Origin: an uncultured Candidatus Saccharibacteria bacterium
GTDB lineage: Bacteria > Patescibacteriota > CAZHWT01
Length of the DNA stretch: 64,000 nucleotides
Direction: 5' to 3'
Assembly: GCA_964597145.1 (NCBI GenBank)
Contig: CAZQWH010000002.1
Span: 49,232 to 113,231, forward strand
A model generated the notes under the pieces. It worked only from the letters and a program-made list of their open reading frames with translations. It did not search any database and was not told the DNA's origin. A program made the translations under genes and the position numbers. Shown here one piece after another: positions 10,159-54,702 of this stretch. Within the stretch, counting starts at the first letter, position 1. Every line of letters starts with the position of its first letter.

Positions 10159-10637
10159 TGGCACAATTCTAGCCTTATATCATCCAACCACTCCAGCAGG
10201 TGTTCGAACCAAATGGCATCCGGCTCACCATAAATGGCTCAGATCATTTGATCTAGGCTATTTTTGTTGCGTCGCTAGCGAATCTCCCAGTTCATAGTAC
10301 TGTTCGCTTGGCAGGAGAGTACTATTTGCACAACGATACTAATTGTATGAATTACCAACTTGGCGGAGCCAACTCCCTCCCGGCTCACCAAAACATCTAA
10401 ACAGTGCGCCTCGGATCCATCCATCTATCTGAGGTAAAAAAGCTTTGTTACGTAACATGTTACGCAATAATAGGGTCTGGTGATATCTGTGAGGGGAGCA
10501 GGTGTCATATTTAACTCAACGTACATCCATAGGATCATGTAAATTAATTTTATTTGATATATAGCCTATAATATTATATAATCGTCACTATACATAACCG
10601 AGGTTCGCAAGCAAGTATCTACAAAGGAGACTGCAGA

Positions 10638-12291: not shown

Positions 12292-12623
12292 CTATTACCC
12301 AGCTTCCATACTTTCATTAAAGTAAGGAATTTGGTTGTACAGAGGGGATACCCACTCCCGATATGGTAAAGTTCTAGTCATAACGCTAGTAGTTTTATCT
12401 GAGTTAAAATGACTTTGTTACGTAACACGTTACGTAACAATAGGCATAGTGGTATCTACAAGAGGGCACCTGTTAAGAGGTAAACGCCTGACAGGTGGCA
12501 GAGCTGATTACTCCATAGCCAACCACTCACCCTCAAAGTTGTTGTCGCACTACTTGCGCATAATATTTCAACTCCTCTGTATCATCTGATATAATTCCGC
12601 CACGTATCAAAGGAGTAGACAGT

Positions 12624-14198: not shown

Positions 14199-14555
14199 CT
14201 GATACCCAAGTCACCAAACTTGCCGTATATAAGGGGTTTAACCATTTCAGAAGGTGTTCAAATAAAATTGCATCTAGGGTAACTATAAATACGCATGTAG
14301 CTTACTTACCTCAGACAAGTAAGCTACGTCTTAAATCAAGCAACCTAGGTTCAAAGCTATTTAACCTTTGAGGTTAAAGTCGTAAAGGTCTATATTATTA
14401 GAGGCTTAATACGAGGTACGAAAATTTACTCAAACTCTACCCAACCGTCATTGCCAGGTCGCCACGCTCCCCACCATGACGACAAATTCAGACTATGAGA
14501 AAGGAAAAGGGAGCATCAATTGATGCTCCCGCGACGCCAGTGGCGCCCAATAAAT

Positions 14556-18628: not shown

Positions 18629-18800
18629 TCCCATTACACCAAATATACTTATTGAAAATAACGATCATAGATGGGCTGAATATTGATCAAGTAAGCCAGG
18701 TTCAAGCACGTTTAACCCCGATCAAATCAGGGCTAGCCTCCGAGGTTGCATCTTCAGTCTAGTTTGCCCATGGTGACTGCGGATAGGTATAATTAATTGG

Positions 18801-27310: not shown

Positions 27311-27702
27311 GGCATATTGCGATATCTTTAGTAAAGGCCTGCATTGCATCTTGCGTCATGCTAAGCGTTAGCAGCCTGTCAGCCTCTGGCTGCAAGAATC
27401 TTTTAAAGCCTCCATTGTTAGTAGCAATTAACGATCCAGCCACCCATTCAACCTCCGAGGTTAAACGTGCTTGAACCTAGGTTGCTTGATGTAATATTTA
27501 TGTACCTTGTCATTCCCGGCTTGACCGGGAATCCGAGCGCCGAGTGACTCCACACTTCTTAAATTGCCGCTGACACAGAGATAACCTTAAGTTTTAACTT
27601 TTGCGCTGTAGTTTCGACCCTTAACCTTTGCCCTTTGAATTTTGACGTCCCTTCACGTTTGCTTGGTTACAGGTACAGAGTTAACGGTATACAATAGACA
27701 AC

Positions 27703-29882: not shown

Positions 29883-30001
29883 AGGCAGTTTAGCACATGG
29901 TTGGCAGTGCAAATTAAACGGGGAATCCAATGTATTTCTTAATGTCATACTTGTTAACCTCCGCCGCCTGGTGGCTCATTTTATAGATTCAACCTATTAC
30001 T

Positions 30002-30070
30002 CACCCTTCATCCAATTATCTGAGTTAATTTGGCAAACGTATATACGTCCGTATATACGTTTTTTAAGCT
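30002..30070 (+). repeat. Dispersed ~70-nt element: TTATCTGAGTTAATT box plus perfect hairpin AACGTATATACG-N3-CGTATATACGTT and T-run (terminator-like)
   Basis: Near-identical copy at 51970..52040. Confidence 0.75.
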
Positions 30071-38258: not shown

Positions 38259-38349
38259 GCCATACCCCTTTCTTTGTTTGCCTGCCTCCAGTTAGGCGCA
38301 TTATAGCACGGTTAATTGAGTCTTAAGTCCGAAAAGAAGGTGTGTACTT

Positions 38350-38417
38350 CATTGCCAGGGAGTGGTAGCAACCGTGGCAACCTGCCTGTTTCGCATCTAA
38401 AATTCGCTCGCTATGAC
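38350..38417. repeat. MITE-like element with GTCATTGC(G/C)AGG-type inverted termini (family copy)
   Basis: 'TTCATTGCCAGGGAGTGGTAGCAACCGTGGCAACCTGCC...CGCTATGACGAGGGAGG'; the internal 'GGAGTGGTA.C..C..TGGCAACCTGCC' is shared with the copy at 52815. Confidence 0.6.
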
Positions 38418-38581
38418 GAGGGAGGGGTGGGGTTGGAGATCGGGTTTTAGGTTTCTAGCTCTAAGCGTCAGTACGTCCTCGTCATTCCCGCGCAGGCGGG
38501 AATCTGAGACTGTGGTGGTGGATGTAGGGCTTAGATTTAATTGGAGAAGATCGCCACGGCGTAGCCTCGCGATGACGGGCT

Positions 38582-38623
38582 GTAGACCGTAGACCGTAGA
38601 CCGTAGACCGTAGACCGTAGAGG
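38582..38623. repeat. Heptanucleotide tandem array (GTAGACC, 6 units) inside a composite repeat element
   Basis: Read directly; flanked by the conserved 'GATCGCCACGGCGTAGCCTCGCGATGACGGG' (38551..38580) and 'GAGGAGATTCTATCTCTTCGCT' (38621..38642). Confidence 0.9.
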
Positions 38624-38816
38624 AGATTCTATCTCTTCGCTGCGCTCCGCTCCAGAATGACGGGAGGGTGTCGAAGATCGGAGGTCGGAGATCTAATATC
38701 GTATTTCATTCATCCAGCAGTCCAATCTCCTAACTCCTGCCTCCTGCAGTACATACAAAAAGACCCCGGAGATTATCCGGGGTCTTTTTGTTAGGCGTTA
38801 GCTAATTAATGGTAAT

Positions 38817-41122: not shown

Positions 41123-41263
41123 GAAGTACTCAAAACCCATTCGCACACCACCCATCACCCTTCGTCGATATATCTGAGATATAAACGGCTTGTTACGTAA
41201 CATGTTACGTAACAAAATCAATTGGTAATGATAACTTACGATTAACTAAATAACCCATAGTAT

Positions 41264-41845: not shown

Positions 41846-42344
41846 CTTTGTCATTCTGAGTGTCAACGCCTACCAGCCTCTAGCTAGAAGAATCCTCCAA
41901 TCTAGATGGCCATAAGGATCCTTCGCTTTCAGTTCAGGATGACAAATACCTGTAATTCCTAGAAAGTAGTTAATCAAGATCTTTATTAACTGTTCATCGC
42001 TCAGATTCCGGCTCGGAGCCTCAATGGAAACATTCCAAACTCAGGCGCATTTATGACGCGCTTCACTCCCTATAAACCACAGTCTATCTAGATACTTTCG
42101 TCTCAATAAACCCGAGAATTGCACGATACTTAACCATAATTTCATCTATTCCACCCATCAACCTATCCAAGTTAATATATCTCAGACAGGAACCTCCCAT
42201 AAATTTGACCTCTCACATATAAAAGCCTAAAAAACTACACACAATCAGTACCAAGTAACAGTATGTAACATGCAGCCTCCATCACGCCTTAACCTAAAGC
42301 CTGAGCCAGAAATTCCCAACTCTTCGTCACACCAACAAGCAACC

Positions 42345-42412
42345 TAGGTTCAAAGCTGTTTAACCCCCGAGGTTAAATGTGTTTGAACCTAGGTTGCTTG
42401 TTAAACTTTAAG
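42345..42412. repeat. Palindromic dispersed element ACAAGCAACCTAGGTTCAAAGC-TTTAACCCCCGAGGTTAAA-TTTGAACCTAGGTTGCTTGTT (complete copy)
   Basis: Half or partial copies at 14335..14380, 27450..27491, 54516..54572 and 18696..18720. Confidence 0.8.
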
Positions 42413-42755: not shown

Positions 42756-43808
42756 CTAAAATTCTCCCACCAACCCAATTTCCATTTCCAATTGATAGCC
42801 GGTTTCGGCTTTGACTTTCTCCTGAGCCAGTATGGCTAAGGCCATAACATCAGCCGCAGTAGCCTGACCCGTATTGACTAAAAAGTTAGCATGTTTTTCG
42901 GATATTTTTGCTCCGCCAACCTGCTTGCCTTTTAGTCCCACCTGATCGATTAATCGACCAGCGCCCACCCCTTCAATTTTTTTAAAGACCGAACCACAAG
43001 AGGGGAAATCCTCTAGTTGGGGTTGACGTTCGCGACGCCATTTAAGATTTTCTTGGGCTTGATGGACTATTTCCGCCTTTGGTTTAGTTATCAGATTAAA
43101 GGTGGCCTCTAACACAATAACCTCCTGGTGGTGGAGGATAGAATCGTCATAGCCAAACTGAAAAAAGTCGGTACCCACTACTCGAGTTGAATTATCTGGC
43201 ATCAGAACTTTGGCACTATCTAAAACCTCCTCAATAAACACTGTCCGACTACGATCTGGCGACAAAAAATGCAGATTCTGCCATAAGGCGCCACCAACGC
43301 TACTTGGAATGCCGGCAAAATGCTCGAGGCCGGAGAGTTGGCGCTCGGCTGTATATTTAATTAAATCGGCAATGGTTGCCCCGGACTCGGCAGTGAGCAA
43401 GCAGGTCGGAGATCGCATGTCGGAGGTCGATTCACTGTCATCCAGGAGTGCGTCAGCACGATAGGATCTATCCTGGACATCATGACCATCCTGAGAGATT
43501 CTATCGCCTCCGGCTCCAGAAAGACGAGATAAAGGGTTAATCTCAACATTATCTGCCTGATTATAAATTACTAACCCACGAAATCCTTTGTCGCCGATGA
43601 GGATATTGGCGCCGGTGCCGAGGAGGAAGTAGGGGATGGACTGCTGTCGCGCTTGAGTGATGGCAGTTACGAGCTGGTCTTGGGAGTGAACCTCCACAAA
43701 ATAGTCAGCTGGGCCGCCGATCTGGTAGGTGGTGTAAGGGGCAAGGGATACATCTCGTTGTATATCTAACCCAGGTATATTGAGATCCATATGAGTGTAG
43801 TGTACCAT
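42756..43808 (-). CDS. murB: UDP-N-acetylenolpyruvoylglucosamine reductase
   Basis: FAD-binding 'YTTYQIGGPADYFVEV...LLGTGANIL', 'GLEHFAGIPSSVGGALWQN', C-terminal MurB domain. Carries an extra ~40-aa acidic insert encoded by repeat-like DNA at ~43400..43520. Confidence 0.9.
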   Translation of the reverse strand: MVHYTHMDLNIPGLDIQRDVSLAPYTTYQIGGPADYFVEVHSQDQLVTAITQARQQSIPYFLLGTGANILIGDKGFRGLVIYNQADNVEINPLSRLSGAGGDRISQDGHDVQDRSYRADALLDDSESTSDMRSPTCLLTAESGATIADLIKYTAERQLSGLEHFAGIPSSVGGALWQNLHFLSPDRSRTVFIEEVLDSAKVLMPDNSTRVVGTDFFQFGYDDSILHHQEVIVLEATFNLITKPKAEIVHQAQENLKWRRERQPQLEDFPSCGSVFKKIEGVGAGRLIDQVGLKGKQVGGAKISEKHANFLVNTGQATAADVMALAILAQEKVKAETGYQLEMEIGLVGEF

Positions 43809-44457: not shown

Positions 44458-44580
44458 AGATTGATACAATTCCCTGGAGGCGAAAGCCGACGGGGAATTT
44501 TTATTGCTAATATTTCATGCTTAGAATTTGTTTCATATACTGTAATTCTGATTTCTCATTTCAAAACATCAGATTCCCGA

Positions 44581-46215
44581 TCAGGTCGGGAATGACAGGG
44601 GAGCGGTGTTTGTTAATTGAGGCGAATATGGTTTGATATTGGATCGATTGCTAGGACTACTTATATATCGTTTTAAGATTTTATATTGATCCAGATCGAA
44701 CTGAGGGATTATCGATTGGTGCTCAATTAACTGGTCATGTTGGATAATATGGCCAACCAAACACCAGTTATCAATAATATACCCATCACTTTGGCCTTGA
44801 TGGTCGCTTTCGGTAATAATAATCGGTGTCGCATATGGCCATTGTTTAATTCTGGTTGTGGCAAAAGCTTGGTTGAATCGCATTAAATACTCCAAGCTGG
44901 ATTCTTTTCCCACACACGCTCCATAGCAAACTTTGAGTTGATGAGGGAAACAGGCGCCAGAGGTTTTTTGGAGCCCTAATAATTTGTGACAAAGGTGATG
45001 CTCTTTGGCTAGAGCAACTAATGATTCTTTAGCCTGTCGCTCGGAGCGATAGACGGCCATAACTGCGTCCAGAGGGACGCAGGAGGTCGATGGTGGGAGG
45101 TTGGAAGGCGACTTGGATTTTAATTTGTCGTCATCCCGGAAGAAGTCTTGCGACTGATAGGATCTAGATTCTATCGCCTTTGGCTCTCTTCGATCCTGAG
45201 CCTCAGAGCCGAAGGCCAGAATGACATTTTCTATATTTATTTTTTCTGATTTCTGATTTGTTTCGATTTTAGGATTTAGAATTTCTGATTTGCGCTGCAA
45301 GGAGATTGTTGGATAGCCAGCCTCATCTTTGCCTTTAATCGCCACCATCATCTCGGTTTGGCATCGCAGCAGCCGGTTATGGATCGGCATTAGCTCCTTA
45401 ATTAAGCGTGATTCAGTAAGCAAGGCACCTAGTTCGCCGGTAGTAGATATGGTTTCAATATCCGTAATTTCCCGGGCAATCCGTTGCTCTTTGGGGGAGC
45501 GGTGGTCATCGCTAAAGTGAGATAAAACTCGATCACGGATACTCACACTTTTGCCGACATACAAGGGTGCATTAGTGGCAGAGCGAAAAATATAAACCCC
45601 CGGCGACTCAGGTAAGTCATTCACAATTCTCTGGGGCAGGTGAACCGGCAAAGATGGCTGACGTAGCTGTAATCGAACCTGCTGGTTAATAATTGCTTCG
45701 TCATGTTGTTCAACCATGCATTGCAAGGCTTTCCAAGTCGCTTCAGCATCAGCAAAAGCCCGGTGGCGTTCGAGTATAGGGATAGCAAAGCGTTCAATGA
45801 GGGCGTCTAGTTTATGGCTGCGATAGTGCGGGTAAAGTGCTCGGGACAACTTGACCGTGCAGAGCAGGCGAGGTTTAAACTGGTACCCAGCTCGCCCTAA
45901 TTCCTCTTTGATAAAGGCATAATCAAACCGGGCGTTGTGCGCCACAAAAATACAGCCTTCAAGTAAGTCGTACACATCCTGAGCCACCTCAGTAAAAGTA
46001 GGTGCGCCCGTTATATCATCATTAGAAATCCCAGTTAATTGGGTAATAAAGGCTGGGAGTGAGGTACCAGGATTAATTAATTGGCGCATAGTTTGCACCA
46101 CCTGCCCCTGCTCAATCCGTAAAATACCCACATCAATCACGCCGCCGTTTTTATACGACATCCCAGTAGTTTCGACATCAACAATAGCCAGCGGAGAATG
46201 GAACAGATTGGGCAT
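44581..46215 (-). CDS. DnaQ-like 3'-5' exonuclease (DEDDh) fused to GIY-YIG nuclease domain (Cho/UvrC-homologue-like)
   Basis: Exo motifs 'VDVETTG', 'HNARFD', 'HRAFADA'; GIY-YIG 'GVYIFRS...LYVGKSVSIRDRVLSHF'. A ~75-aa low-complexity insert is encoded by repeat DNA at ~45060..45300. Confidence 0.85.
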   Translation of the reverse strand: MPNLFHSPLAIVDVETTGMSYKNGGVIDVGILRIEQGQVVQTMRQLINPGTSLPAFITQLTGISNDDITGAPTFTEVAQDVYDLLEGCIFVAHNARFDYAFIKEELGRAGYQFKPRLLCTVKLSRALYPHYRSHKLDALIERFAIPILERHRAFADAEATWKALQCMVEQHDEAIINQQVRLQLRQPSLPVHLPQRIVNDLPESPGVYIFRSATNAPLYVGKSVSIRDRVLSHFSDDHRSPKEQRIAREITDIETISTTGELGALLTESRLIKELMPIHNRLLRCQTEMMVAIKGKDEAGYPTISLQRKSEILNPKIETNQKSEKINIENVILAFGSEAQDRREPKAIESRSYQSQDFFRDDDKLKSKSPSNLPPSTSCVPLDAVMAVYRSERQAKESLVALAKEHHLCHKLLGLQKTSGACFPHQLKVCYGACVGKESSLEYLMRFNQAFATTRIKQWPYATPIIITESDHQGQSDGYIIDNWCLVGHIIQHDQLIEHQSIIPQFDLDQYKILKRYISSPSNRSNIKPYSPQLTNTAPLSFPT

Positions 46216-46475: not shown

Positions 46476-47297
46476 CTACTTACCTACACCCAGCACCGTG
46501 GACAAGGCCAAGATCAGACAATCGATCAGCCTGTCAATGATCTCCTGAGGAACACCCGGGTAAGGGTTGTCCACACCAGTGTCGGTGCCGGTGTCGGTGT
46601 CGGTGTCAGTGTCACCTCCGCATTGAAGCGCGAAGTAACTGAAATCCGCCCCGTTGATCACCGAGCCGTGAATGTACACTGGCTCAGTGAATACCTGGTC
46701 CCCAGGCAGCAGATCAAGTTGGCCCGACGTATCCGCCACAGCACTGACCGCAAGTCTTTCGGTCAGCACCTGGGTGTCGGACTCACCATCACGAGCGAAG
46801 AACTCGATCTGATAGGGCCCACCTTCTTCGTAGTTAACGAAGATAGTGTATTCAATCAGCCCACTACAGTTTGCATCCGTGATGACGGAGCAGACCGAAT
46901 GGTCACACTGATTGACCGGGCCACCATCCGATTCTGCATCGGTATCCGGGGCGCCCGTATCGGTATCGACGTCTGTGTCAGCGTCAGCTGAGGTGTCGGC
47001 GTCGAAGTCAGAAGTTGTGTCGGTCGTTGTATCAACGATCGGCACCGACGAATTGTCGATGTCCTCGACTGGGACAATCTGCTGATCCGACGGAGTGTCG
47101 GTGTCGATATCGGTGTCGGTATCGATGTCAGAATTGTCGATGTTTTCGACCAGCTGCTGGCCGGAATTATCGATCGGCACCGACGAGTTGTCGATATCCT
47201 CAACCGGGACGAGCTGCTGCTCCGTCTCGGCACTAGCCATCGCCGGCATGATCGCCATCATGAGCGCTGCAAACAGCGGAACCAGAATCTTCTTCAT
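46476..47297 (-). CDS. Secreted acidic repeat protein (DT/DxD-rich), hypothetical
   Basis: Signal peptide 'MKKILVPLFAALMMAIMPAMASA'; duplicated 'QQLVPVEDIDNSSVPI' segments; (DT)n runs; GC-rich. Confidence 0.5.
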   Translation of the reverse strand: MKKILVPLFAALMMAIMPAMASAETEQQLVPVEDIDNSSVPIDNSGQQLVENIDNSDIDTDTDIDTDTPSDQQIVPVEDIDNSSVPIVDTTTDTTSDFDADTSADADTDVDTDTGAPDTDAESDGGPVNQCDHSVCSVITDANCSGLIEYTIFVNYEEGGPYQIEFFARDGESDTQVLTERLAVSAVADTSGQLDLLPGDQVFTEPVYIHGSVINGADFSYFALQCGGDTDTDTDTGTDTGVDNPYPGVPQEIIDRLIDCLILALSTVLGVGK

Positions 47298-51200: not shown

Positions 51201-51610
51201 GAGAGCTCCTCAACTCCGCCGACCTACCAGCCTGTGCTGGCAAAAATATTATCTTCTTAATCGATGGGGCAGCCACCTTTGATGCCAATGTAATTAACAA
51301 CTCAAACAATATTACTTTTACCTTTATTGCAAGCGGCGATATAACAGTAGACCAGAACGTCGACCAACTAGATGGGGTCTATATATTCGGCCACAACTTT
51401 GATGGCGGTGGGGGAGATACGCAACTGGTAGTTAACGGCTCACTGATTGGTTTGGCTGGAAGCTCACCCAGCTCTAGCACTGGATCATTTAACTTGCACC
51501 GAAGCTTGGCCGACAATACTACACCTGCCCTACTTATCCGCTACCAACCCAAGTATCTATTTCTACTTAAAGATGTGATGGGTACCTCCAACTACACCTG
51601 GAGCGAGTAG
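48290..51610 (+). CDS. Large secreted surface protein: N-terminal vWA domain, three tandem ~125-aa beta-rich repeats, C-terminal ~290-aa domain
   Basis: Signal peptide; vWA MIDAS 'VLVVDASASLD' and 'LVLVTDGLDN'; Pro/Thr linker; thrice-repeated 'L.LTTE..I.I..G..Y.T..G.QYLPS.SAW..SDR...GI...S.CP...G.YK.CLG' units. Confidence 0.75.
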   Translation: MNIRLRIQRSATLLVALLAVVGIVFPTNSLAADADKVIIGGSSSYSAGDTVNIEVRVPWPDSIDVNPVEIVLVVDASASLDSYIAAAKTPLKNFVDDLANFPGAAKVSVVTFGHRPSSSSAPNSPFTHTQFAMRQIKTSTDRTDLKNAINSIDTNSLEAYSDIRQGIIYGNSKFSTSSNVSKRYLVLVTDGLDNYPASGSSILGETSWNGQCAITPSGASNISGLRYDEFTILPGGDTSKKLDFSFNDGSNKHYISPCGYGQGDSIPTGSQFINKMTTAFSNTDRATSLQDTINQIYYLITPAQVEVTDRLNSNVFDSIITTQNPKNCSSGDTYSFGDTQKTGAISFSSTALSPSKNGTCIRISARVKSGASTGSQSINSSINSVKYKNVPGDILSETDIKLGSINISGGTFPTPDPTSTPIDNSPTPTPTPKPTPISTPPPSTKDLGLNAGPNFSVNAGEQHTSSVSLQYYPNSSAWSTSDRVMLKITGIVSSSSSCPSSYTADAVSTGSNITAGLNTLGNDTTFLYFPDSSRSVIVKPNTSASPGNYKVCLGGMLVGHTDIYATDSLNFTVVAQSKDLALTTESGISISTGTNYNTAVGLQYLPSASAWNSSDRVNHRSVGIVPAGATCPDDGGLRTTGSGPTAGISLNGIYKTVNFNTPSIPFTIQVDNSTDPGNYKICLYAIRVRESISDPYVKAYKELNFTVTAPPKSIGLTTEPNIKINAGATYTTSAGIQYLPSDSAWDTSDRLWLKITGIMPASSSCPADARADDVTSGTGSASNITAGIDNLGDGFKYLYYDTASKSIKIQPGTNTPIGDYKICLGLSLNGSSDVVTVDAINFAVTQQSWIQIGRSLGQAVGETGDVHSNSGLTIKVPINQYFFKDGTAGVVTAKAAFDDPAQDRFTTAAAKLWRIPSYPDVITTDSYTRLRQAILDNVGQTAINSNSASDINTACTNHQTVVIHQASLAQGELLNSADLPACAGKNIIFLIDGAATFDANVINNSNNITFTFIASGDITVDQNVDQLDGVYIFGHNFDGGGGDTQLVVNGSLIGLAGSSPSSSTGSFNLHRSLADNTTPALLIRYQPKYLFLLKDVMGTSNYTWSE

Positions 51611-51612
51611 AG

Positions 51613-51662
51613 GACTTTGGACTTTGGACTTTGGACTTTGGACTTTGGACTTTGGACTTTGG
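51613..51662. repeat. Heptanucleotide tandem array (GACTTTG, 7 units) starting 3 nt after the stop codon of the 1106-aa gene
   Basis: Read directly; followed by the conserved 'GGAGGAGATTCTATCTCTTCGCT' and 'GATCACCACGGCGTAGC...GATGACGGGAGGG' flanks. Confidence 0.9.
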
Positions 51663-51969
51663 AGGAGATTCTATCTCTTCGCTATAGATACTGCTGGTAA
51701 TACAGGCAGGTCTGGTTGGATAAAGTAGATACCGATTAAATTGGGGTAGATCACCACGGCGTAGCTTCCGCCAGGGGCGGACAGGCGTGATGACGGGAGG
51801 GATTCGAAGATCGTATATCGGGTTTTAGGTTTGGTGTTTGTGATTTCGAGCTTGTGATTTGTTTCTCATTTCGAATTTCTCATTTCGGCTTTTGCCTATA
51901 ATTCCACCTCCATTTCTTGTCTTGCGCATTTCGTATTCTGCCTTCTAGTTTCCCATCCCACCCGGCACA

Positions 51970-52040
51970 TCACCCTTCCATCATTTATCTGAGTTATTTT
52001 GGCCAACGTATATACGGGCGTATATACGTTTTTTGAGCCT
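51970..52040 (+). repeat. Second copy of the TTATCTGAGTTATTT plus AACGTATATACG-N3-CGTATATACGTT-T6 terminator-like element
   Basis: Near-identical to 30002..30070. Confidence 0.75.
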
Positions 52041-52178
52041 TTCGTGAAATCTTCTGGGATATTGGGGAAGTGAGACGCGAGTGGGGTTACATTTTGGTAT
52101 AACTGTACTTAAAAGACCACTGCTGTAGCAGTGGTCTTTTAAGTAATCTCAATTGCAATCAGGCAATCTAGCCATCGG

Positions 52179-52514
52179 TTAGGCTGCTTGACGTTGCTGC
52201 TGGAAGCAGTCGTTGCAATAAACAGGCTTAGCACCGCTCGGTTCAAACGGTACCTCGGTATCTTTACCGCAATTGGCACAAACGGCCGGGTGCATTTGGC
52301 GTGGACCGCCGTTGCGATGACCGTTAAAACGAGCTTTCTTAGCTGCCCGGCAAGCAGGACAACGCTGAGGCTCGCTAAAGCCCTTCTCAGCATAAAACTC
52401 TTGTTCTTGAGCAGTGAAAGTAAACTCGCGAGAGGCAGGCATGCCAGTCTCGTCTAGGGTATTTTCATCGTGGAATGAATCGGTACACGATAAAACTTTA
52501 TCTTGATATTCCAT
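52179..52514 (-). CDS. Zinc-ribbon protein (two CxxC pairs)
   Basis: 'CPACR...CANCGK...CNDC'; ATG at 52514 preceded by a perfect RBS 'AAGGAGGTG'. Confidence 0.5.
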   Translation of the reverse strand: MEYQDKVLSCTDSFHDENTLDETGMPASREFTFTAQEQEFYAEKGFSEPQRCPACRAAKKARFNGHRNGGPRQMHPAVCANCGKDTEVPFEPSGAKPVYCNDCFQQQRQAA

Positions 52515-52769
52515 CTTTCTGTGGTTCACCTCCTTTATTGGCGAACTTCCTTGGCGCAAAGGAGGAGTGCAGAAAGAAGAAATCTCGTCTTACGCTAGCT
52601 ACCAGCCTTATCCTCGGTATGTCAGAAGCCACCTCGCGTATATCTATTTGGCCATTAGTCCAAATCTACAACTAAGTCGGCTTCTGTTGCGAGTATATAA
52701 GTCTGGAATAAGCTGGTCAAGTAGGAAAGCGACAACAGTGAGCGTTGTAGGGTTACAAGACGAGAGACT

Positions 52770-52805
52770 GGATGCGGGATGCGGGATAAGGGATAAGGGA
52801 TAAGG
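52770..52805. repeat. Heptanucleotide tandem array (GGATGCG x2, GGATAAG x3)
   Basis: Read directly; followed by 'GGTTAGTATACGTCATTGCGAAGG', as at 30346. Confidence 0.85.
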
Positions 52806-52814
52806 TTAGTATAC

Positions 52815-52928
52815 GTCATTGCGAAGGAGTGGTAACGACTATGGCAACCTGCCCGCCATGCTTACGCAGCCGTTGCAGGCGGGTCTTGGTGGGATCTAGC
52901 AGATCGCCACGGCGTAGCCTCGCGATGA
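52815..52928. repeat. MITE-like element, GTCATTGCGAAGG ... CCTCGCGATGAC termini
   Basis: 114 nt; internal 'GGAGTGGTAACGACTATGGCAACCTGCC' and 'GATCGCCACGGCGTAGCCTCGCGATGACGG' boxes shared with 38350 and 38551. Confidence 0.75.
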
Positions 52929-53338
52929 CGGGGAAGAGGATTTGTATATTGTATATCGTATATCGTATTTCGGGGATTGGGTTGGTGTGTTGTGATTCCT
53001 GTCCGCAAGGCTGGTTATGGCTTGCCTGGTGGACGGGTTTTGTTTCTGATTTGTTTCGTATTTCGTATTTCGTATTTTGTATTTCTGAATAAGTTTTACC
53101 TTTTATCTTTTCCGTTCAGATCACAGCTGTCCTTTAGGTAAGATTTTTGTCTTATCGAACAACTTCCAACTAAGGCTCAATCTAGCTCATTCCCCTAGCT
53201 ATCTGAGTTAATTCTGTGACTAAGAAATATTTTACCCAATTTCCGGTCTAAATTTTCAAAAATTAACCAACAGCGGAGTACATATTTTACCCTGGTAATT
53301 TGACAGGCAACCAAGCGATTGGATACCATTAACAAGAT

Positions 53339-54229: not shown

Positions 54230-54702
54230 AAAATATGGATTGAATCCGTAGTGATTCAGTCTATGTTTTTTGTGCTTGTGGGTTTGGAGTTTCACTATGC
54301 AAAGCAGGTTCACATTCTAAAAGAGTACTATGCCAACACCGATTGTAATAGTGAGAACTAGAAATCCCAACATAGTCGGGGTCCCTCTCCCCAGTACCGC
54401 ATCTATCAGTCTCAAGCTAGGAGAGTAATAACAACGCAGCAGTCTTATCTAAAGATGTACATTTGAATGTACATCTTTAGATATTTATCTGAGATGAAAT
54501 AAACAGCCATCAAATCAGACAACCTAGGTTCAAGCACGTTTAACCCCGGGGGTTAAACGGGTCGTCATTCGCACTCATTAATAATTCACAGGATAAAAAT
54601 AGCCATCACTCGGCATCATTTGTATTGGCTTATTTGACTTATACCACCCTATCCGTTATATAACCCACATCGGCGTGAGAGTGCATAAAAAGGAGAGACT
54701 TC

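What the first reader, a model, noticed from the sequence alone, without database searches (positions are those of the whole stretch)
45060..45300. Second in-frame repeat insertion: composite heptamer-repeat element inside the DnaQ-GIY-YIG nuclease gene
Between the GIY-YIG domain and the C-terminal domain the protein carries ~75 aa of low-complexity sequence (…KIETNQKSEKINIENVILAFGSEAQDRREPKAIESRSYQSQDFFRDDDKLKSKSPSNLPPSTS…). The DNA contains the same building blocks as the intergenic composite elements: CGTCATCCCGG…CCAGAATGACA, GATAGGATCTAGATTCTATCGCC, and a degenerate heptamer run TTTTCTGATTTCTGATTTGTTTCGATTTTAGGATTTAGAATTTCTGATTTG (compare 53043..53095 and 51840..51900). Two independent housekeeping genes carrying in-frame copies argues for an element family able to insert into, or be tolerated within, coding sequence.
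Basis: seen in the sequence. Interest (0 to 1): 0.65.

Follow-up and report, generated by a model that had tools for sequence, protein, structure and literature searches.

The report
Hairpin repeat pair inside repair-nuclease gene
A small palindromic "selfish" repeat of the REP type, flanked by 7-base tandem repeats, sits in frame in the flexible linker of a DNA-repair nuclease gene; this behaviour is known from Rickettsia, but this hairpin type is also found in several distant bacterial phyla.

Summary
The 544-aa DnaQ-exonuclease/GIY-YIG/Cho gene (44581..46215, minus strand) has 69 residues (313-381) where its closest orthologues have 4. That is a net +65 codons.

The core (45129..45226) is two inverted hairpin units that abut. 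Their CGTC/TGTC tags face outward, which is the head-to-head dimer layout of CGTC-tagged REPs. A T-rich heptamer run and a weak G-rich run flank the core. MurB, 1.6 kb away, carries the same dimer in frame.

A covariance model built only from units in other genomes hits all four intragenic units (E 8e-6 to 8e-4). The same unit occurs in Patescibacteria, Fibrobacter, Clostridia and other MAGs. Its stem covaries, it has no target-site duplication, and there too it lies in frame inside real genes such as MnmA, RecG, an aaRS and ATP synthase gamma.

AlphaFold predicts the insert as a disordered loop between well-folded domains. Only one of the six frames is open.

My verdict is an intragenic REP dimer tolerated in a linker. 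This is a known kind of event (RPE and CGTC REPs). It is a structural variant because the hairpin is bipartite and heptamer runs accompany it. How it moves is unknown.

The parts
44581..46215 (-). Host gene: a 544-aa fusion of a DnaQ-like 3'-5' exonuclease, a GIY-YIG nuclease, UvrC_M and Cho_C (a Cho/UvrC-homologue repair nuclease).
   Evidence: ORF list. Pfam RNase_T 8e-31 and GIY-YIG 2e-5. Precomputed UvrC_M and Cho_C hits. AlphaFold gives confident domains on both sides of the insert.
45073..45279 (-). Lineage-specific in-frame segment covering residues 313-381. It holds 69 aa where orthologues have 4, a net +65 codons (195 nt).
   Evidence: Alignment A1 and the linker extraction. Only 1 of the 6 frames is stop-free. 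pLDDT is below 50 for residues 314-377, which is window 45085-45276.
45229..45293 (.). T-rich degenerate heptamer run: TTTCTGA, TTTCGAT and similar on the + strand, AAATCAG and similar in the mRNA. It encodes KSEILNPKIETNQKSEKINIE. Its promoter-proximal end overlaps the conserved codons R308-I312.
   Evidence: TRF calls period 7 at 45243-45259. Repeat family D7 is 79% and 71% identical to 53043-53084 and 51851-51892. BLAST E 2e-5.
45166..45226 (-). Hairpin unit 2, read on the minus strand as TGTC-ATTCT-GG..[12-bp apical stem]..GAT-AGAAT-CT. It has a TGTC tag (45223-45226), an intact 5-bp basal stem and an unusually long inner hairpin.
   Evidence: Covariance model R1 hit 45165-45227 (-), 23.3 bits, E 7.7e-4. 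The fold shows the AUUCU/AGAAU stem plus a 12-bp apical stem, z -3.15, 1/200 shuffles.
45129..45165 (+). Hairpin unit 1: CGTC-ATCCC-GGAAGAAGTCTTGCGACTGAT-AGGAT-CT. The CGTC tag is at 45129-45132. One basal pair is broken (C where all 48 reference units have T). With unit 2 it forms a tags-outward (HH) dimer with a 0-nt spacer.
   Evidence: R1 hit 45128-45166 (+), 30.9 bits, E 8.4e-6. By my hand alignment it matches a Patescibacteria/MAG unit (L121, GTCATCCTGGAAGGAGCGTAGCGACTGATAGGATCT) at about 30 of 36 positions.
45082..45128 (.). Weak G-rich heptamer-like run (GGAGGTC GATGGTG GGAGGTT GGAAGGC ...), encoding ...KSKSPSNLPPSTS.
   Evidence: Read from the sequence. It is 66% identical to 38657-38688 (family D13). 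TRF does not call it, so the evidence is weak. The same GGAGRTC heptamer flanks the MurB copy (TRF 43401-43429).
44573..44596 (-). Simple TGTC-tagged hairpin GTCATTCCCGA-CCTGA-TCGGGAAT at the 3' end of the gene. It supplies the last six codons (PLSFPT) and the TGA stop, which lies in its loop.
   Evidence: Inverted repeat I9, the hairpin detector, a weak R1 hit at 44570-44598, and the ORF end at 44581.
43401..43526 (.). Sister in-frame insert in MurB (gene 42756..43808, minus strand). It has five GGAGRTC-type heptamers (43401-43435), a left unit (43436-43469), a 26-nt spacer and a right unit (43496-43526). It adds +43 aa.
   Evidence: Sequence, alignment A2, MurB orthologue alignment A3 (299-308 aa against 350 aa), and R1 hits at E 2.1e-5 and 1.7e-4.
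38623..38663 (-). Best-preserved intergenic copy of the same unit, immediately after a (GTAGACC)5.7 run inside a composite repeat array.
   Evidence: R1 top hit, 35.1 bits, E 7.4e-7. TRF array at 38582-38621. Sequence.

Best explanation
The segment is an intragenic copy of a non-autonomous palindromic repeat of the REP type. It consists of two inverted hairpin units, each carrying an unpaired CGTC or TGTC tag, with the tags facing outward (a head-to-head heterodimer). Short tandem heptamer runs flank the pair.

Each unit has three parts: a 5-6 bp basal stem (A-T-N-C-T-G pairing with T-A-G-N'-A-T), a conserved internal loop (GA/GA), and a variable apical hairpin.

The composite entered the linker between the GIY-YIG/UvrC_M module and the Cho_C domain after this lineage split from its closest sequenced relatives. 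It survives there for three reasons:
1. Its total length is a multiple of three.
2. The one frame without stop codons is the frame in register with the gene.
3. The roughly 65 extra residues form a disordered loop in a linker that tolerates length changes.

The insert is most likely a neutral passenger that is translated with the protein and is now decaying. It is probably not a functional domain.

How it got there is inferred, not shown. I think the most likely route is single-strand, hairpin-directed cut-or-copy and paste by an HUH/Y1-type enzyme acting at the YGTC tags, as RAYTs do on GTAG REPs. That route leaves no target-site duplication.
For: Shown here:
- The nearest orthologues lack the insert.
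- The DNA is identical in three per-run assemblies.
- Only one of six frames is open.
- Both units are recognised by a model built only from units of other genomes (E 8.4e-6 and 7.7e-4). The two MurB units and an intergenic copy are recognised as well.
- The basal stem covaries in 48 units that the search pattern did not select. 97.7% of cells pair against 84% in shuffles (0/500). Pair 8-47 is CG 20, UA 20, GC 7. Sliding the partners drops pairing to about 30%.
- The base before GTC is T in 35 and C in 13 of 49 dimers, and no dimer has a 2-7 nt target-site duplication.
- In other genomes 22 of 118 units lie in long open frames. Eight of the ten I checked sit between Pfam domain hits or within a single domain hit: MnmA twice, a class I aaRS, RecG, GT4, PFOR, PfkB and ATP synthase gamma.
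- AlphaFold gives pLDDT below 50 for residues 314-377, between domains at roughly 85-93.
- The same linker is expanded by different repeat-derived sequence in orthologues P0006, P0009, P0012 and P0013.
- Three of the four intragenic units break a base pair that is invariant in all 48 reference units.

From the literature (PMC3733652): CGTC-tagged REPs have a CGTC/TGTC tag, stems that start with A-T then T-A, and mostly HH dimers with tags outside. They occur inside genes, often Uvr, Rec and Pol genes. R. conorii RPE-4 and RPE-6 belong to this group. No dedicated transposase is known.
Against: - Mobility was not observed. No empty-site allele from a close relative (same species or genus) is available, so the exact insertion boundaries are unknown, and I cannot say whether the heptamer runs arrived with the dimer.
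- No transposase was looked for or found.
- The units do not fit the published CGTC families, which have an 8-9 bp continuous stem and a 4-5 nt loop.
- Translation of the insert is inferred from the open frame only.
- The left unit alone does not fold better than shuffled sequence (z +0.64).
- The reference units were collected next to matches of a pattern taken from this window, so the family definition is anchored on the window's own motif.
- The covariance-model E-values are rough because calibration was shortened.
Confidence: 0.75

Rival explanations
1. Ectopic recombination or gene conversion rather than transposition. In this view the composite (heptamer run plus hairpin dimer) was copied into the linker from another composite array. 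Short homology in heptamer tracts, or template switching at stalled forks, would have mediated the copy. The MurB and DnaQ-Cho copies could then be one duplication event.
For: The two intragenic copies lie 1.6 kb apart on the same strand and in the same orientation. They share collinear blocks, including the GGAGRTC heptamers. Composite arrays with similar blocks lie nearby at 38340-38720 and 51610-53100. No target-site duplication and no transposase is seen.
Against: The two copies differ in spacer length (0 against 26 nt), in their inner hairpins and in their second flank. The flanking homology is only a few heptamers long. The same unit is dispersed as discrete dimers with sharp YGTC...GACR ends in many unrelated genomes, which fits an element with defined termini.
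Confidence: 0.15
2. A domesticated, functional insert. The extra loop, or the mRNA or DNA hairpin that encodes it, would alter the activity or expression of the repair nuclease. Examples would be tuning mutation rate, acting as a translational pause, or providing an RNase site.
For: Di Nocera et al. noted that intragenic REPs are over-represented in replication and repair genes (UvrABCD, RecBCD, polymerases) and speculated about mutator effects (PMC3733652). Here the host is a Cho/UvrC-like nuclease. About 5 of the 16 closest orthologues have expansions at the same linker. The sixth basal pair is an invariant G.T (G.U) in 48 of 48 units, which hints at function on one strand, possibly as RNA.
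Against: The insert is predicted to be disordered. The linker inserts of different orthologues are unrelated in sequence. Three of four intragenic units have lost an invariant base pair. The family is inserted in many unrelated proteins, and units are about three times less frequent in open frames than random positions (19% against 58%). That is the pattern of tolerated, not selected, insertions.
Confidence: 0.1
3. Purely local origin. Under this view the segment is a low-complexity linker expansion produced by replication slippage of heptamers, and its resemblance to intergenic repeats is coincidental.
For: The first heptamers (AAATCAG AAATTCT) overlap conserved codons, and the orthologues read AAAGCCG AACTCCA at that place. 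Orthologues P0009 and P0012 carry heptamer-rich inserts with only a short central palindrome.
Against: The central 98 nt is not heptameric. It matches, on both halves, a model trained on other phyla, and the conserved arms are shared nearly base for base. Slippage cannot create that.
Confidence: 0.05
4. An assembly artefact or an inactivated pseudogene.
For: Repeats are a common cause of misassembly, and the source is a metagenome-derived contig.
Against: Three independent per-run assemblies give identical DNA. The reading frame is intact across all 544 codons, with all four domains detected and confidently modelled.
Confidence: 0.02

Closest known systems
CGTC-tagged REPs (Di Nocera, De Gregorio & Rocco 2013, BMC Genomics 14:522; PMC3733652)
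   Same: Both have an unpaired CGTC or TGTC tag at one end and stems that open with A-T then T-A. Both form mostly inverted dimers with the tags outside (HH), often as heterodimers, with spacers from about 1 bp upward. Copies occur inside genes, notably repair genes, and no associated transposase is known. Simple hairpins that fit the published definition exactly (8-bp stem, 4-5 nt loop) are also in this window at 27509, 38481, 44573, 57149 and 61056.
   Different: The units in the insert have a 5-6 bp basal stem, a conserved internal loop and a variable apical hairpin of about 5 to 40 nt, rather than a continuous 8-9 bp stem with a 4-5 nt loop. They occur in Patescibacteria, Fibrobacter and Clostridia MAGs, which lie outside the mostly alphaproteobacterial range reported. 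Here they are also embedded in heptamer tandem runs.
Rickettsia palindromic elements (RPE; Ogata et al. 2000 Science 290:347 and 2002 Genome Res 12:808, as summarised in PMC10969869 and PMC3733652)
   Same: Both are palindromic repeats inserted in frame in housekeeping genes. They add a peptide that is compatible with the protein fold. RPE-4 and RPE-6 are themselves CGTC REPs.
   Different: RPE families are Rickettsia-specific sequences, and RPE-1 is about 150 bp long. No heptamer runs are described with them. I did not compare the sequences directly.
REPIN/RAYT system (Bertels & Rainey 2011, PMC3116915; RAYT biochemistry as cited in PMC3733652)
   Same: Both have an inverted doublet of short hairpin repeats as the replicative unit. 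Both lack a target-site duplication and are plausibly handled as single-stranded hairpins.
   Different: REPINs carry GTAG tags and sit next to a RAYT gene. Here the tag is YGTC and no RAYT association has been shown.
Heptamer tandem repeats (STRR) with nested small dispersed repeats in Nostocaceae (Mazel 1990; Elhai et al. 2008, Genome Res 18:1484). Recalled from memory; the Elhai paper was not available here.
   Same: Both combine tandem heptamer tracts, whose unit sequence changes from locus to locus, with very small hairpin repeats in composite intergenic arrays.
   Different: The window has no HIP1 site, and the nearest named relatives of its MurB are not cyanobacterial. SDR sequences could not be compared.
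Classical MITEs derived from DDE transposons
   Same: Both are small, non-coding and inverted-repeat-bounded, are dispersed in many copies, and occasionally fuse in frame with ORFs (PMC10969869).
   Different: MITEs leave target-site duplications, and none was found in 49 dimers. The ends here are tagged hairpins, not transposase-binding terminal inverted repeats.

Membership tests
CGTC-tagged REP superfamily | An unpaired terminal CGTC motif, with TGTC or CCTC variants allowed | tested here: met
   The tags are CGTC at 45129-45132 and TGTC on the minus strand at 45223-45226. In 49 dimers from other genomes the base before GTC is T in 35 and C in 13.
CGTC-tagged REP superfamily | A stem that begins with complementary A-T and T-A pairs | tested here: met
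   The pairs are A6-U49 in 48 of 48 units and U7-A48 in 43 of 48. The window units read ATCCC...AGGAT and ATTCT...AGAAT.
CGTC-tagged REP superfamily | A continuous stem of 8-9 bp and a loop of 4-5 nt (published families CGTC-1 to -4) | tested here: not met
   The insert units have a 5-6 bp basal stem, a GA/GA internal loop and a variable inner hairpin. The feature is met only by the neighbouring simple hairpins at 27509, 38481, 44573, 57149 and 61056.
CGTC-tagged REP superfamily | Predominantly HH dimers (tags outside), with short or variable spacers | tested here: met
   The insert has tags outward and a 0-nt spacer. The MurB copy has a 26-nt spacer. 63 of 118 units in other genomes have an inverted partner, mostly 0-23 nt away.
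CGTC-tagged REP superfamily | A short unpaired 3' tail (consensus CCA) | tested here: inconclusive
   The units end in CT(N) after the stem. That is a short tail, but it is not CCA.
CGTC-tagged REP superfamily | Many dispersed copies in the host genome | tested here: inconclusive
   Only 64 kb of the host is visible. It holds 5 model hits at E<1e-3 and about 10 weaker or simple-hairpin copies.
Rickettsia palindromic elements | Sequence membership in the RPE-1 to RPE-10 consensus families of Rickettsia | not tested
The resemblance is in behaviour (in-frame insertion) and through the CGTC link stated in PMC3733652.
REPIN/RAYT | A GTAG tag on the REP | tested here: not met
   The tag is YGTC.
REPIN/RAYT | A cognate RAYT (Y1 transposase) gene flanked by the repeats | not tested
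   I did not screen the window ORFs or the rest of the genome for Y1/HUH transposases.
MITE (DDE-type) | Target-site duplication flanking the element | tested here: not met
   None of 49 dimers has a 2-7 nt direct repeat at its ends. The null expectation is 1.2 at k=2-3.
Self-splicing intron, intein or any described structured RNA | A match to a curated model | tested here: not met
   Rfam 15 gave no relevant match. I tried the gathering threshold on the window, the gathering threshold on 18 loci with canonical copies, and permissive E<=5 on the insert and on a canonical dimer. Pfam shows only the four nuclease domains.
Tandem heptamer repeats (STRR-like) | Head-to-tail 7-nt units | tested here: met
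   TRF calls period 7 at 45243-45259 (2.4 perfect copies) within a degenerate run at 45229-45293. Fifteen further period-7 arrays occur in the window.

The most novel reading that the evidence does not exclude
The bipartite YGTC-tagged hairpin may be one very widely distributed mobile element with no known transposase. It is shared almost base for base by Patescibacteria, Fibrobacterota, Clostridia and this lineage. A still unidentified conserved host or element enzyme would move it, and it would routinely colonise coding sequence. The heptamer tracts that abound in the same genomes would be part of its biology. They could be preferred landing sites or by-products of insertion. Because 7 = 1 mod 3, gaining or losing tract units by slippage could also restore the reading frame after an intragenic insertion.
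Probability: 0.12. Interest if true: 0.8.

Novelty: new variant of a known kind. Interest (0 to 1): 0.5.

Why it matters
In-frame colonisation of essential genes by palindromic repeats is usually presented as a Rickettsia curiosity. A 2024 MITE review still calls its occurrence elsewhere 'conceivable' (PMC10969869).

In this window one hairpin type does it twice within 3 kb. The same type also does it in MnmA, RecG, an aminoacyl-tRNA synthetase, ATP synthase gamma and other genes of unrelated phyla. Insertions of this kind are a general, recurrent source of linker and loop insertions in bacterial proteins. They also cause spurious 'low-complexity' regions and hypothetical ORFs in MAG annotation.

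The family has sharply conserved arms, a covarying stem, no target-site duplication and no known transposase. That makes an old open question testable by phylogenetic profiling: what mobilises CGTC-type REPs?

For this particular gene the practical conclusion is ordinary. The nuclease is very probably intact, and the insert is a tolerated passenger.

Tried and rejected
- Cyanobacterial STRR/SDR was my first working idea. I weakened it because the window has no GCGATCGC (HIP1) site in 64 kb and the nearest named MurB relatives are Thermomicrobiales and Patescibacteria MAGs.
- Elhai et al. 2008 could not be opened, so SDR sequences were never compared.
- Full-text searches for the DNA motifs returned only unrelated primer sequences.
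- Rfam gave nothing relevant at gathering or permissive thresholds.
- I could not identify the source organism. BLAST of the window against the 113 fetched loci found no close relative, and cluster look-ups gave no names.
- The pattern scan of 2.9 million viral contigs found no copy, so I have no evidence for phage carriage.
- No target-site duplication and no extended flank symmetry were found.
- Physical linkage of heptamer arrays to hairpin units outside this window is not significant. 14 arrays lie within 100 nt of a unit against 9.4 expected (p about 0.09). Within the window it is modest: 4 of 16 against 1.0 expected (p 0.017).
- Dimer length shows no bias towards multiples of three in general (14/16/19).
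- The MnmA inserts in L057 and L098 lie at the same site, but those genes are closely related, so I do not count them as independent events.
- I considered an intein or intron reading and dropped it. No model matches, and the segment is open in only one frame, which is in register with the gene.
Full report
THE GENE AND THE EXTRA SEGMENT

The finding lies in ORF 44581..46215 on the minus strand, 544 aa. Pfam finds an RNase_T (DnaQ-like) exonuclease at residues 11-163 and a GIY-YIG domain at 205-274. Precomputed hits add UvrC_M and Cho_C. The gene is therefore a Cho/UvrC-homologue repair nuclease fused to a proofreading-type exonuclease.

A search of 5.8 billion proteins returned about 16 close relatives of 473-529 aa. 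In the alignment and the extracted linker DNA, the stretch between the conserved GYPT and V(L/M)(G/A)(I/V)YRS motifs is 15 aa in the two closest orthologues (77% and 76% identity). It is 80 aa here. Residues 313-381 (window 45073..45279) replace four residues (QPEE-like), a net gain of 65 codons.

The sequence is not an artefact. Assemblies of three separate SRA runs are identical to the window over 4.2-6.8 kb, covering this gene and MurB. Of the six reading frames across the segment, only the one in use lacks stop codons.

ANATOMY OF THE SEGMENT

On the + strand the segment has four parts:
- A weak G-rich heptamer-like run at 45082-45128.
- Unit 1 at 45129-45165: CGTC ATCCC GGAAGAAGTCTTGCGACTGAT AGGAT CT.
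- Unit 2 at 45166-45226, directly abutting unit 1. Read on the minus strand it is TGTC ATTCT GG..(12-bp apical stem)..GAT AGAAT CT.
- A T-rich degenerate heptamer run at 45229-45293. TRF calls period 7 at 45243-45259.

Unit 2 folds as expected and better than shuffled sequence (z -3.15, 1/200). Unit 1 alone does not (z +0.64).

THE SISTER COPY IN MurB AND THE INTERGENIC COPIES

MurB (42756..43808, same strand) carries a collinear copy:
- Five GGAGRTC-type heptamers at 43401-43435.
- A TGTC-tagged unit at 43436-43469.
- A 26-nt spacer.
- An inverted unit at 43496-43526.

MurB orthologues are 299-308 aa against 350 aa here, and the alignment shows a clean 43-aa insertion.

The motif AGATTCTATCKC occurs five times in the window against 0.52 expected, and CCAGAAWGAC three times against 0.27. 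The T-rich run is 79% and 71% identical to the runs at 53043 and 51851. Local alignment significance was z=9.5 against 52740-53100 and z=6.8 against the MurB insert (0/300 shuffles each). It was only marginal against 38340-38720 and 51600-51960.

THE UNIT IS NOT PRIVATE TO THIS GENOME

I scanned one genome per GTDB species for AGATTCTATCKC-N(8-38)-CCAGAAWGAC. By my own rough calculation, chance would give a few tens of matches.

The matches are clearly not chance:
- Almost all share bases outside the pattern (ATCGC..., ...GCTCCAGAATGAC).
- They come several per genome.
- 63 of 118 have an inverted partner unit 0-55 nt upstream, mostly 0-23 nt. It has the form YGTC-A[TNC]TGGAG-(variable hairpin)-CGAT-A[GN'A]T-CT.

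The host records are labelled Patescibacteria (Roizman-, Davies-, Falkow-, Levy-, Curtiss- and Komeilibacteria), 'uncultured Gammaproteobacteria', Fibrobacter, Christensenellaceae, Oscillospiraceae and others. No copy was found in 2.9 million viral contigs.

THE HAIRPIN IS REAL

The partner units were not selected by the search pattern. In them the variable triplet of the basal stem is perfectly complementary in 55 of 63 cases. Four compensatory types occur: TCC/GGA 24, TTC/GAA 18, TGC/GCA 9 and CTC/GAG 4.

On a 48-sequence alignment (A4), 97.7% of cells pair against 84% in shuffles (0/500). There are 57 double-sided changes against 14.6 expected (0/500). Pairing falls to about 30% when the partners are slid by one to three columns.

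The sixth pair is an invariant G.T. This makes the two strands unequal and is compatible with an RNA G.U pair or a single-strand DNA form.

No Rfam family matches the window, 18 canonical loci, or the insert at permissive thresholds.

AN OBJECTIVE MEMBERSHIP TEST

I built covariance model R1 from those 48 foreign units and searched the window with filters off. The five best hits were:

| Position | Strand | Location | E-value |
|---|---|---|---|
| 38623-38663 | - | intergenic | 7.4e-7 |
| 45128-45166 | + | DnaQ-Cho insert, unit 1 | 8.4e-6 |
| 43495-43527 | - | MurB insert | 2.1e-5 |
| 43435-43470 | + | MurB insert | 1.7e-4 |
| 45165-45227 | - | DnaQ-Cho insert, unit 2 | 7.7e-4 |

Both halves of both intragenic inserts therefore belong to the family. 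The E-values are rough because calibration was shortened.

Three of the four intragenic units break a base pair that is invariant in all 48 reference units (A6-U49 or U10-A45). The intergenic copy does not. That pattern suggests decay after insertion, or selection against a strong hairpin inside a gene.

WHAT KIND OF ELEMENT THIS IS

Di Nocera et al. (PMC3733652) define a superfamily of CGTC-tagged REPs with these properties:
- An unpaired CGTC or TGTC tag.
- Stems starting A-T then T-A.
- Mostly 'HH' dimers, with the tags outside.
- Copies inside genes, strikingly often in UvrABCD, RecBCD and polymerase genes. R. conorii RPE-4 and RPE-6 are members.
- No dedicated transposase.

The insert units meet the tag, stem-start and HH-dimer criteria. 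They do not meet the published 8-9 bp stem and 4-5 nt loop. Instead they are bipartite: a basal stem, a conserved internal loop and a variable apical hairpin.

Simple hairpins that fit the published form exactly are also in the window at 27509, 38481, 44573, 57149 and 61056.

In 49 foreign dimers the base before GTC is T or C in 48, and the base after GAC is A or G in 44. None has a 2-7 nt target-site duplication. This argues against a DDE-type MITE. It is what single-strand HUH/Y1 transposition (RAYT or IS200-like) would leave. That mechanism is an inference, because no enzyme was examined.

TOLERANCE IN CODING SEQUENCE IS GENERAL

In the foreign loci, 22 of 118 units lie in stop-free spans with at least 150 nt on each side. 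Random positions do so 58% of the time. Units are therefore selected against in genes, but they are not excluded.

Pfam scans of ten such ORFs found the unit between domain hits, or within a single domain hit, in eight of them:
- MnmA, twice.
- A class I aminoacyl-tRNA synthetase.
- RecG.
- A GT4 glycosyltransferase.
- PFOR.
- A PfkB kinase.
- ATP synthase gamma.

Of the other two, one had a single domain hit on one side of the unit and one had no Pfam hit.

The two MnmA inserts are at the same site, but they may share ancestry.

In the DnaQ-Cho family the same linker is expanded by unrelated repeat-derived sequence in P0006, P0009, P0012 and P0013. P0006 has heptamers plus a CGTCATTGCGAG...GCAATC unit. 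P0009 and P0012 have inverted heptamer runs around a small palindrome.

AlphaFold2 on the orthologue alignment gives pLDDT below 50 for residues 314-377. It gives roughly 85-93 for the flanking domains. The insert is a disordered loop in a permissive linker.

THE HEPTAMERS

In this window, period-7 arrays cluster with hairpin units in composite arrays. Four of 16 lie within 150 nt of a model hit against 1.0 expected (p 0.017). By eye, most of the others sit next to other CGTC-tag-bearing blocks.

In the foreign loci, period-7 arrays are by far the commonest tandem class: 117 with at least 3 copies, against 23 of period 6 and 32 of period 8 in 786 kb. Their proximity to detected units is not significant, however (14 against 9.4, p about 0.09).

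So the two features co-occur in the same genomes. I cannot say the heptamers are part of the element.

The first heptamers of the insert overlap conserved codons (AAATCAG AAATTCT, where orthologues have AAAGCCG AACTCCA). This leaves local origin of the runs open.

VERDICT

The segment is an intragenic head-to-head dimer of YGTC-tagged REP-type hairpins with flanking heptamer runs. It is tolerated as a disordered loop in an inter-domain linker.

The phenomenon is known from RPEs and CGTC REPs, including its occurrence in repair genes. What is not in the papers I could read:
- The bipartite architecture of the unit.
- Its near-identical arms across very distant phyla, including Patescibacteria.
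- The heptamer company it keeps.

The mechanism of spread remains unknown. The source organism was not identified.

Noticed in passing
window 44569-44600: A simple TGTC-tagged hairpin (GTCATTCCCGA-CCTGA-TCGGGAAT, minus strand) overlaps the 3' end of the DnaQ-Cho gene. It encodes the last six residues (PLSFPT), and the TGA stop lies in its loop. The same gene therefore carries repeat-derived sequence at two places.
   Followed up: partly
window 43401-43526 (MurB, 42756..43808 minus strand): MurB has an in-frame 43-aa insert made of five GGAGRTC-type heptamers plus the same hairpin dimer with a 26-nt spacer. All 11 aligned orthologues lack it.
   Followed up: yes
L057:2669-3907, L098:3986-5197, L100:403-3483, L062:3865-6258, L080:5567-6877, L108:3332-4669, L044:4024-5061, L014:2144-3073: In other genomes the same hairpin unit or dimer is in frame inside MnmA (twice, at the same site), a class I aaRS, RecG, a GT4 glycosyltransferase, PFOR, a PfkB kinase and ATP synthase gamma. 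Typical encoded peptides are VILE..., ...AIES(R/H)..., DSIA...LQND and ...SRMT.
   Followed up: partly
L006:203-1792, L007:5001-6518, L009:485-2005; protein P0013: Orthologues of the DnaQ-Cho gene carry different repeat-derived expansions at the same linker: +54, +31, +24 and about +20 aa. One has a CGTCATTGCGAG...GCAATC hairpin between heptamer runs. Two have inverted heptamer runs (CGAGTTT...AAACTCG) around a short palindrome.
   Followed up: partly
loci L010-L122 (786 kb from element-bearing genomes): Tandem arrays of period 7 are by far the commonest class. There are 117 with at least 3 copies, against 23 of period 6 and 32 of period 8. Their closeness to hairpin units is not significant.
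   Followed up: partly
alignment A4, columns 11 and 44: The sixth basal pair of the hairpin is an invariant G.T (G.U) in 48 of 48 units, so only one strand can form the full stem. Many inner loops are of the GCGAAGC, GCGTAGC or GTGAAAC type. From memory, these are known as very stable DNA mini-hairpins.
   Followed up: no
window 14314-14378, 18686-18720, 27442-27511, 42333-42402, 54509-54562: This is another dispersed palindromic repeat family, CAACCTAGGTTCAAGCACGTTTAACCCCGGGGGTTAAAC-like (40-65 nt, at least 5 copies in both orientations). It is unrelated to the tagged hairpins.
   Followed up: no
window 10426-10474, 12396-12444, 41171-41219; 30001-30069 and 51970-52038: These are conserved blocks ending in paired palindromes (TTGTTACGTAACA TGTTACGTAACAA, and AACGTATATACG..CGTATATACGTT). 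Each is preceded by ...CACCCTTC...TTATCTGAG.... They may be regulatory sites or the ends of another element.
   Followed up: no
window 1-64000: The window has no GCGATCGC (HIP1) site in 64 kb despite its abundant heptamer repeats. The nearest named MurB relatives are Thermomicrobiales and Patescibacteria MAGs, so the organism is probably not a cyanobacterium. It was not identified.
   Followed up: partly
window 46476-47297 (minus strand) with hexamer arrays at 46579-46613 and 47095-47129: This 273-aa ORF has a signal-peptide-like start and long D/T-rich (DTDTDT) tracts encoded by GTGTCG hexamer repeats. An internal 59-nt direct repeat lies at 47031 and 47166.
   Followed up: no
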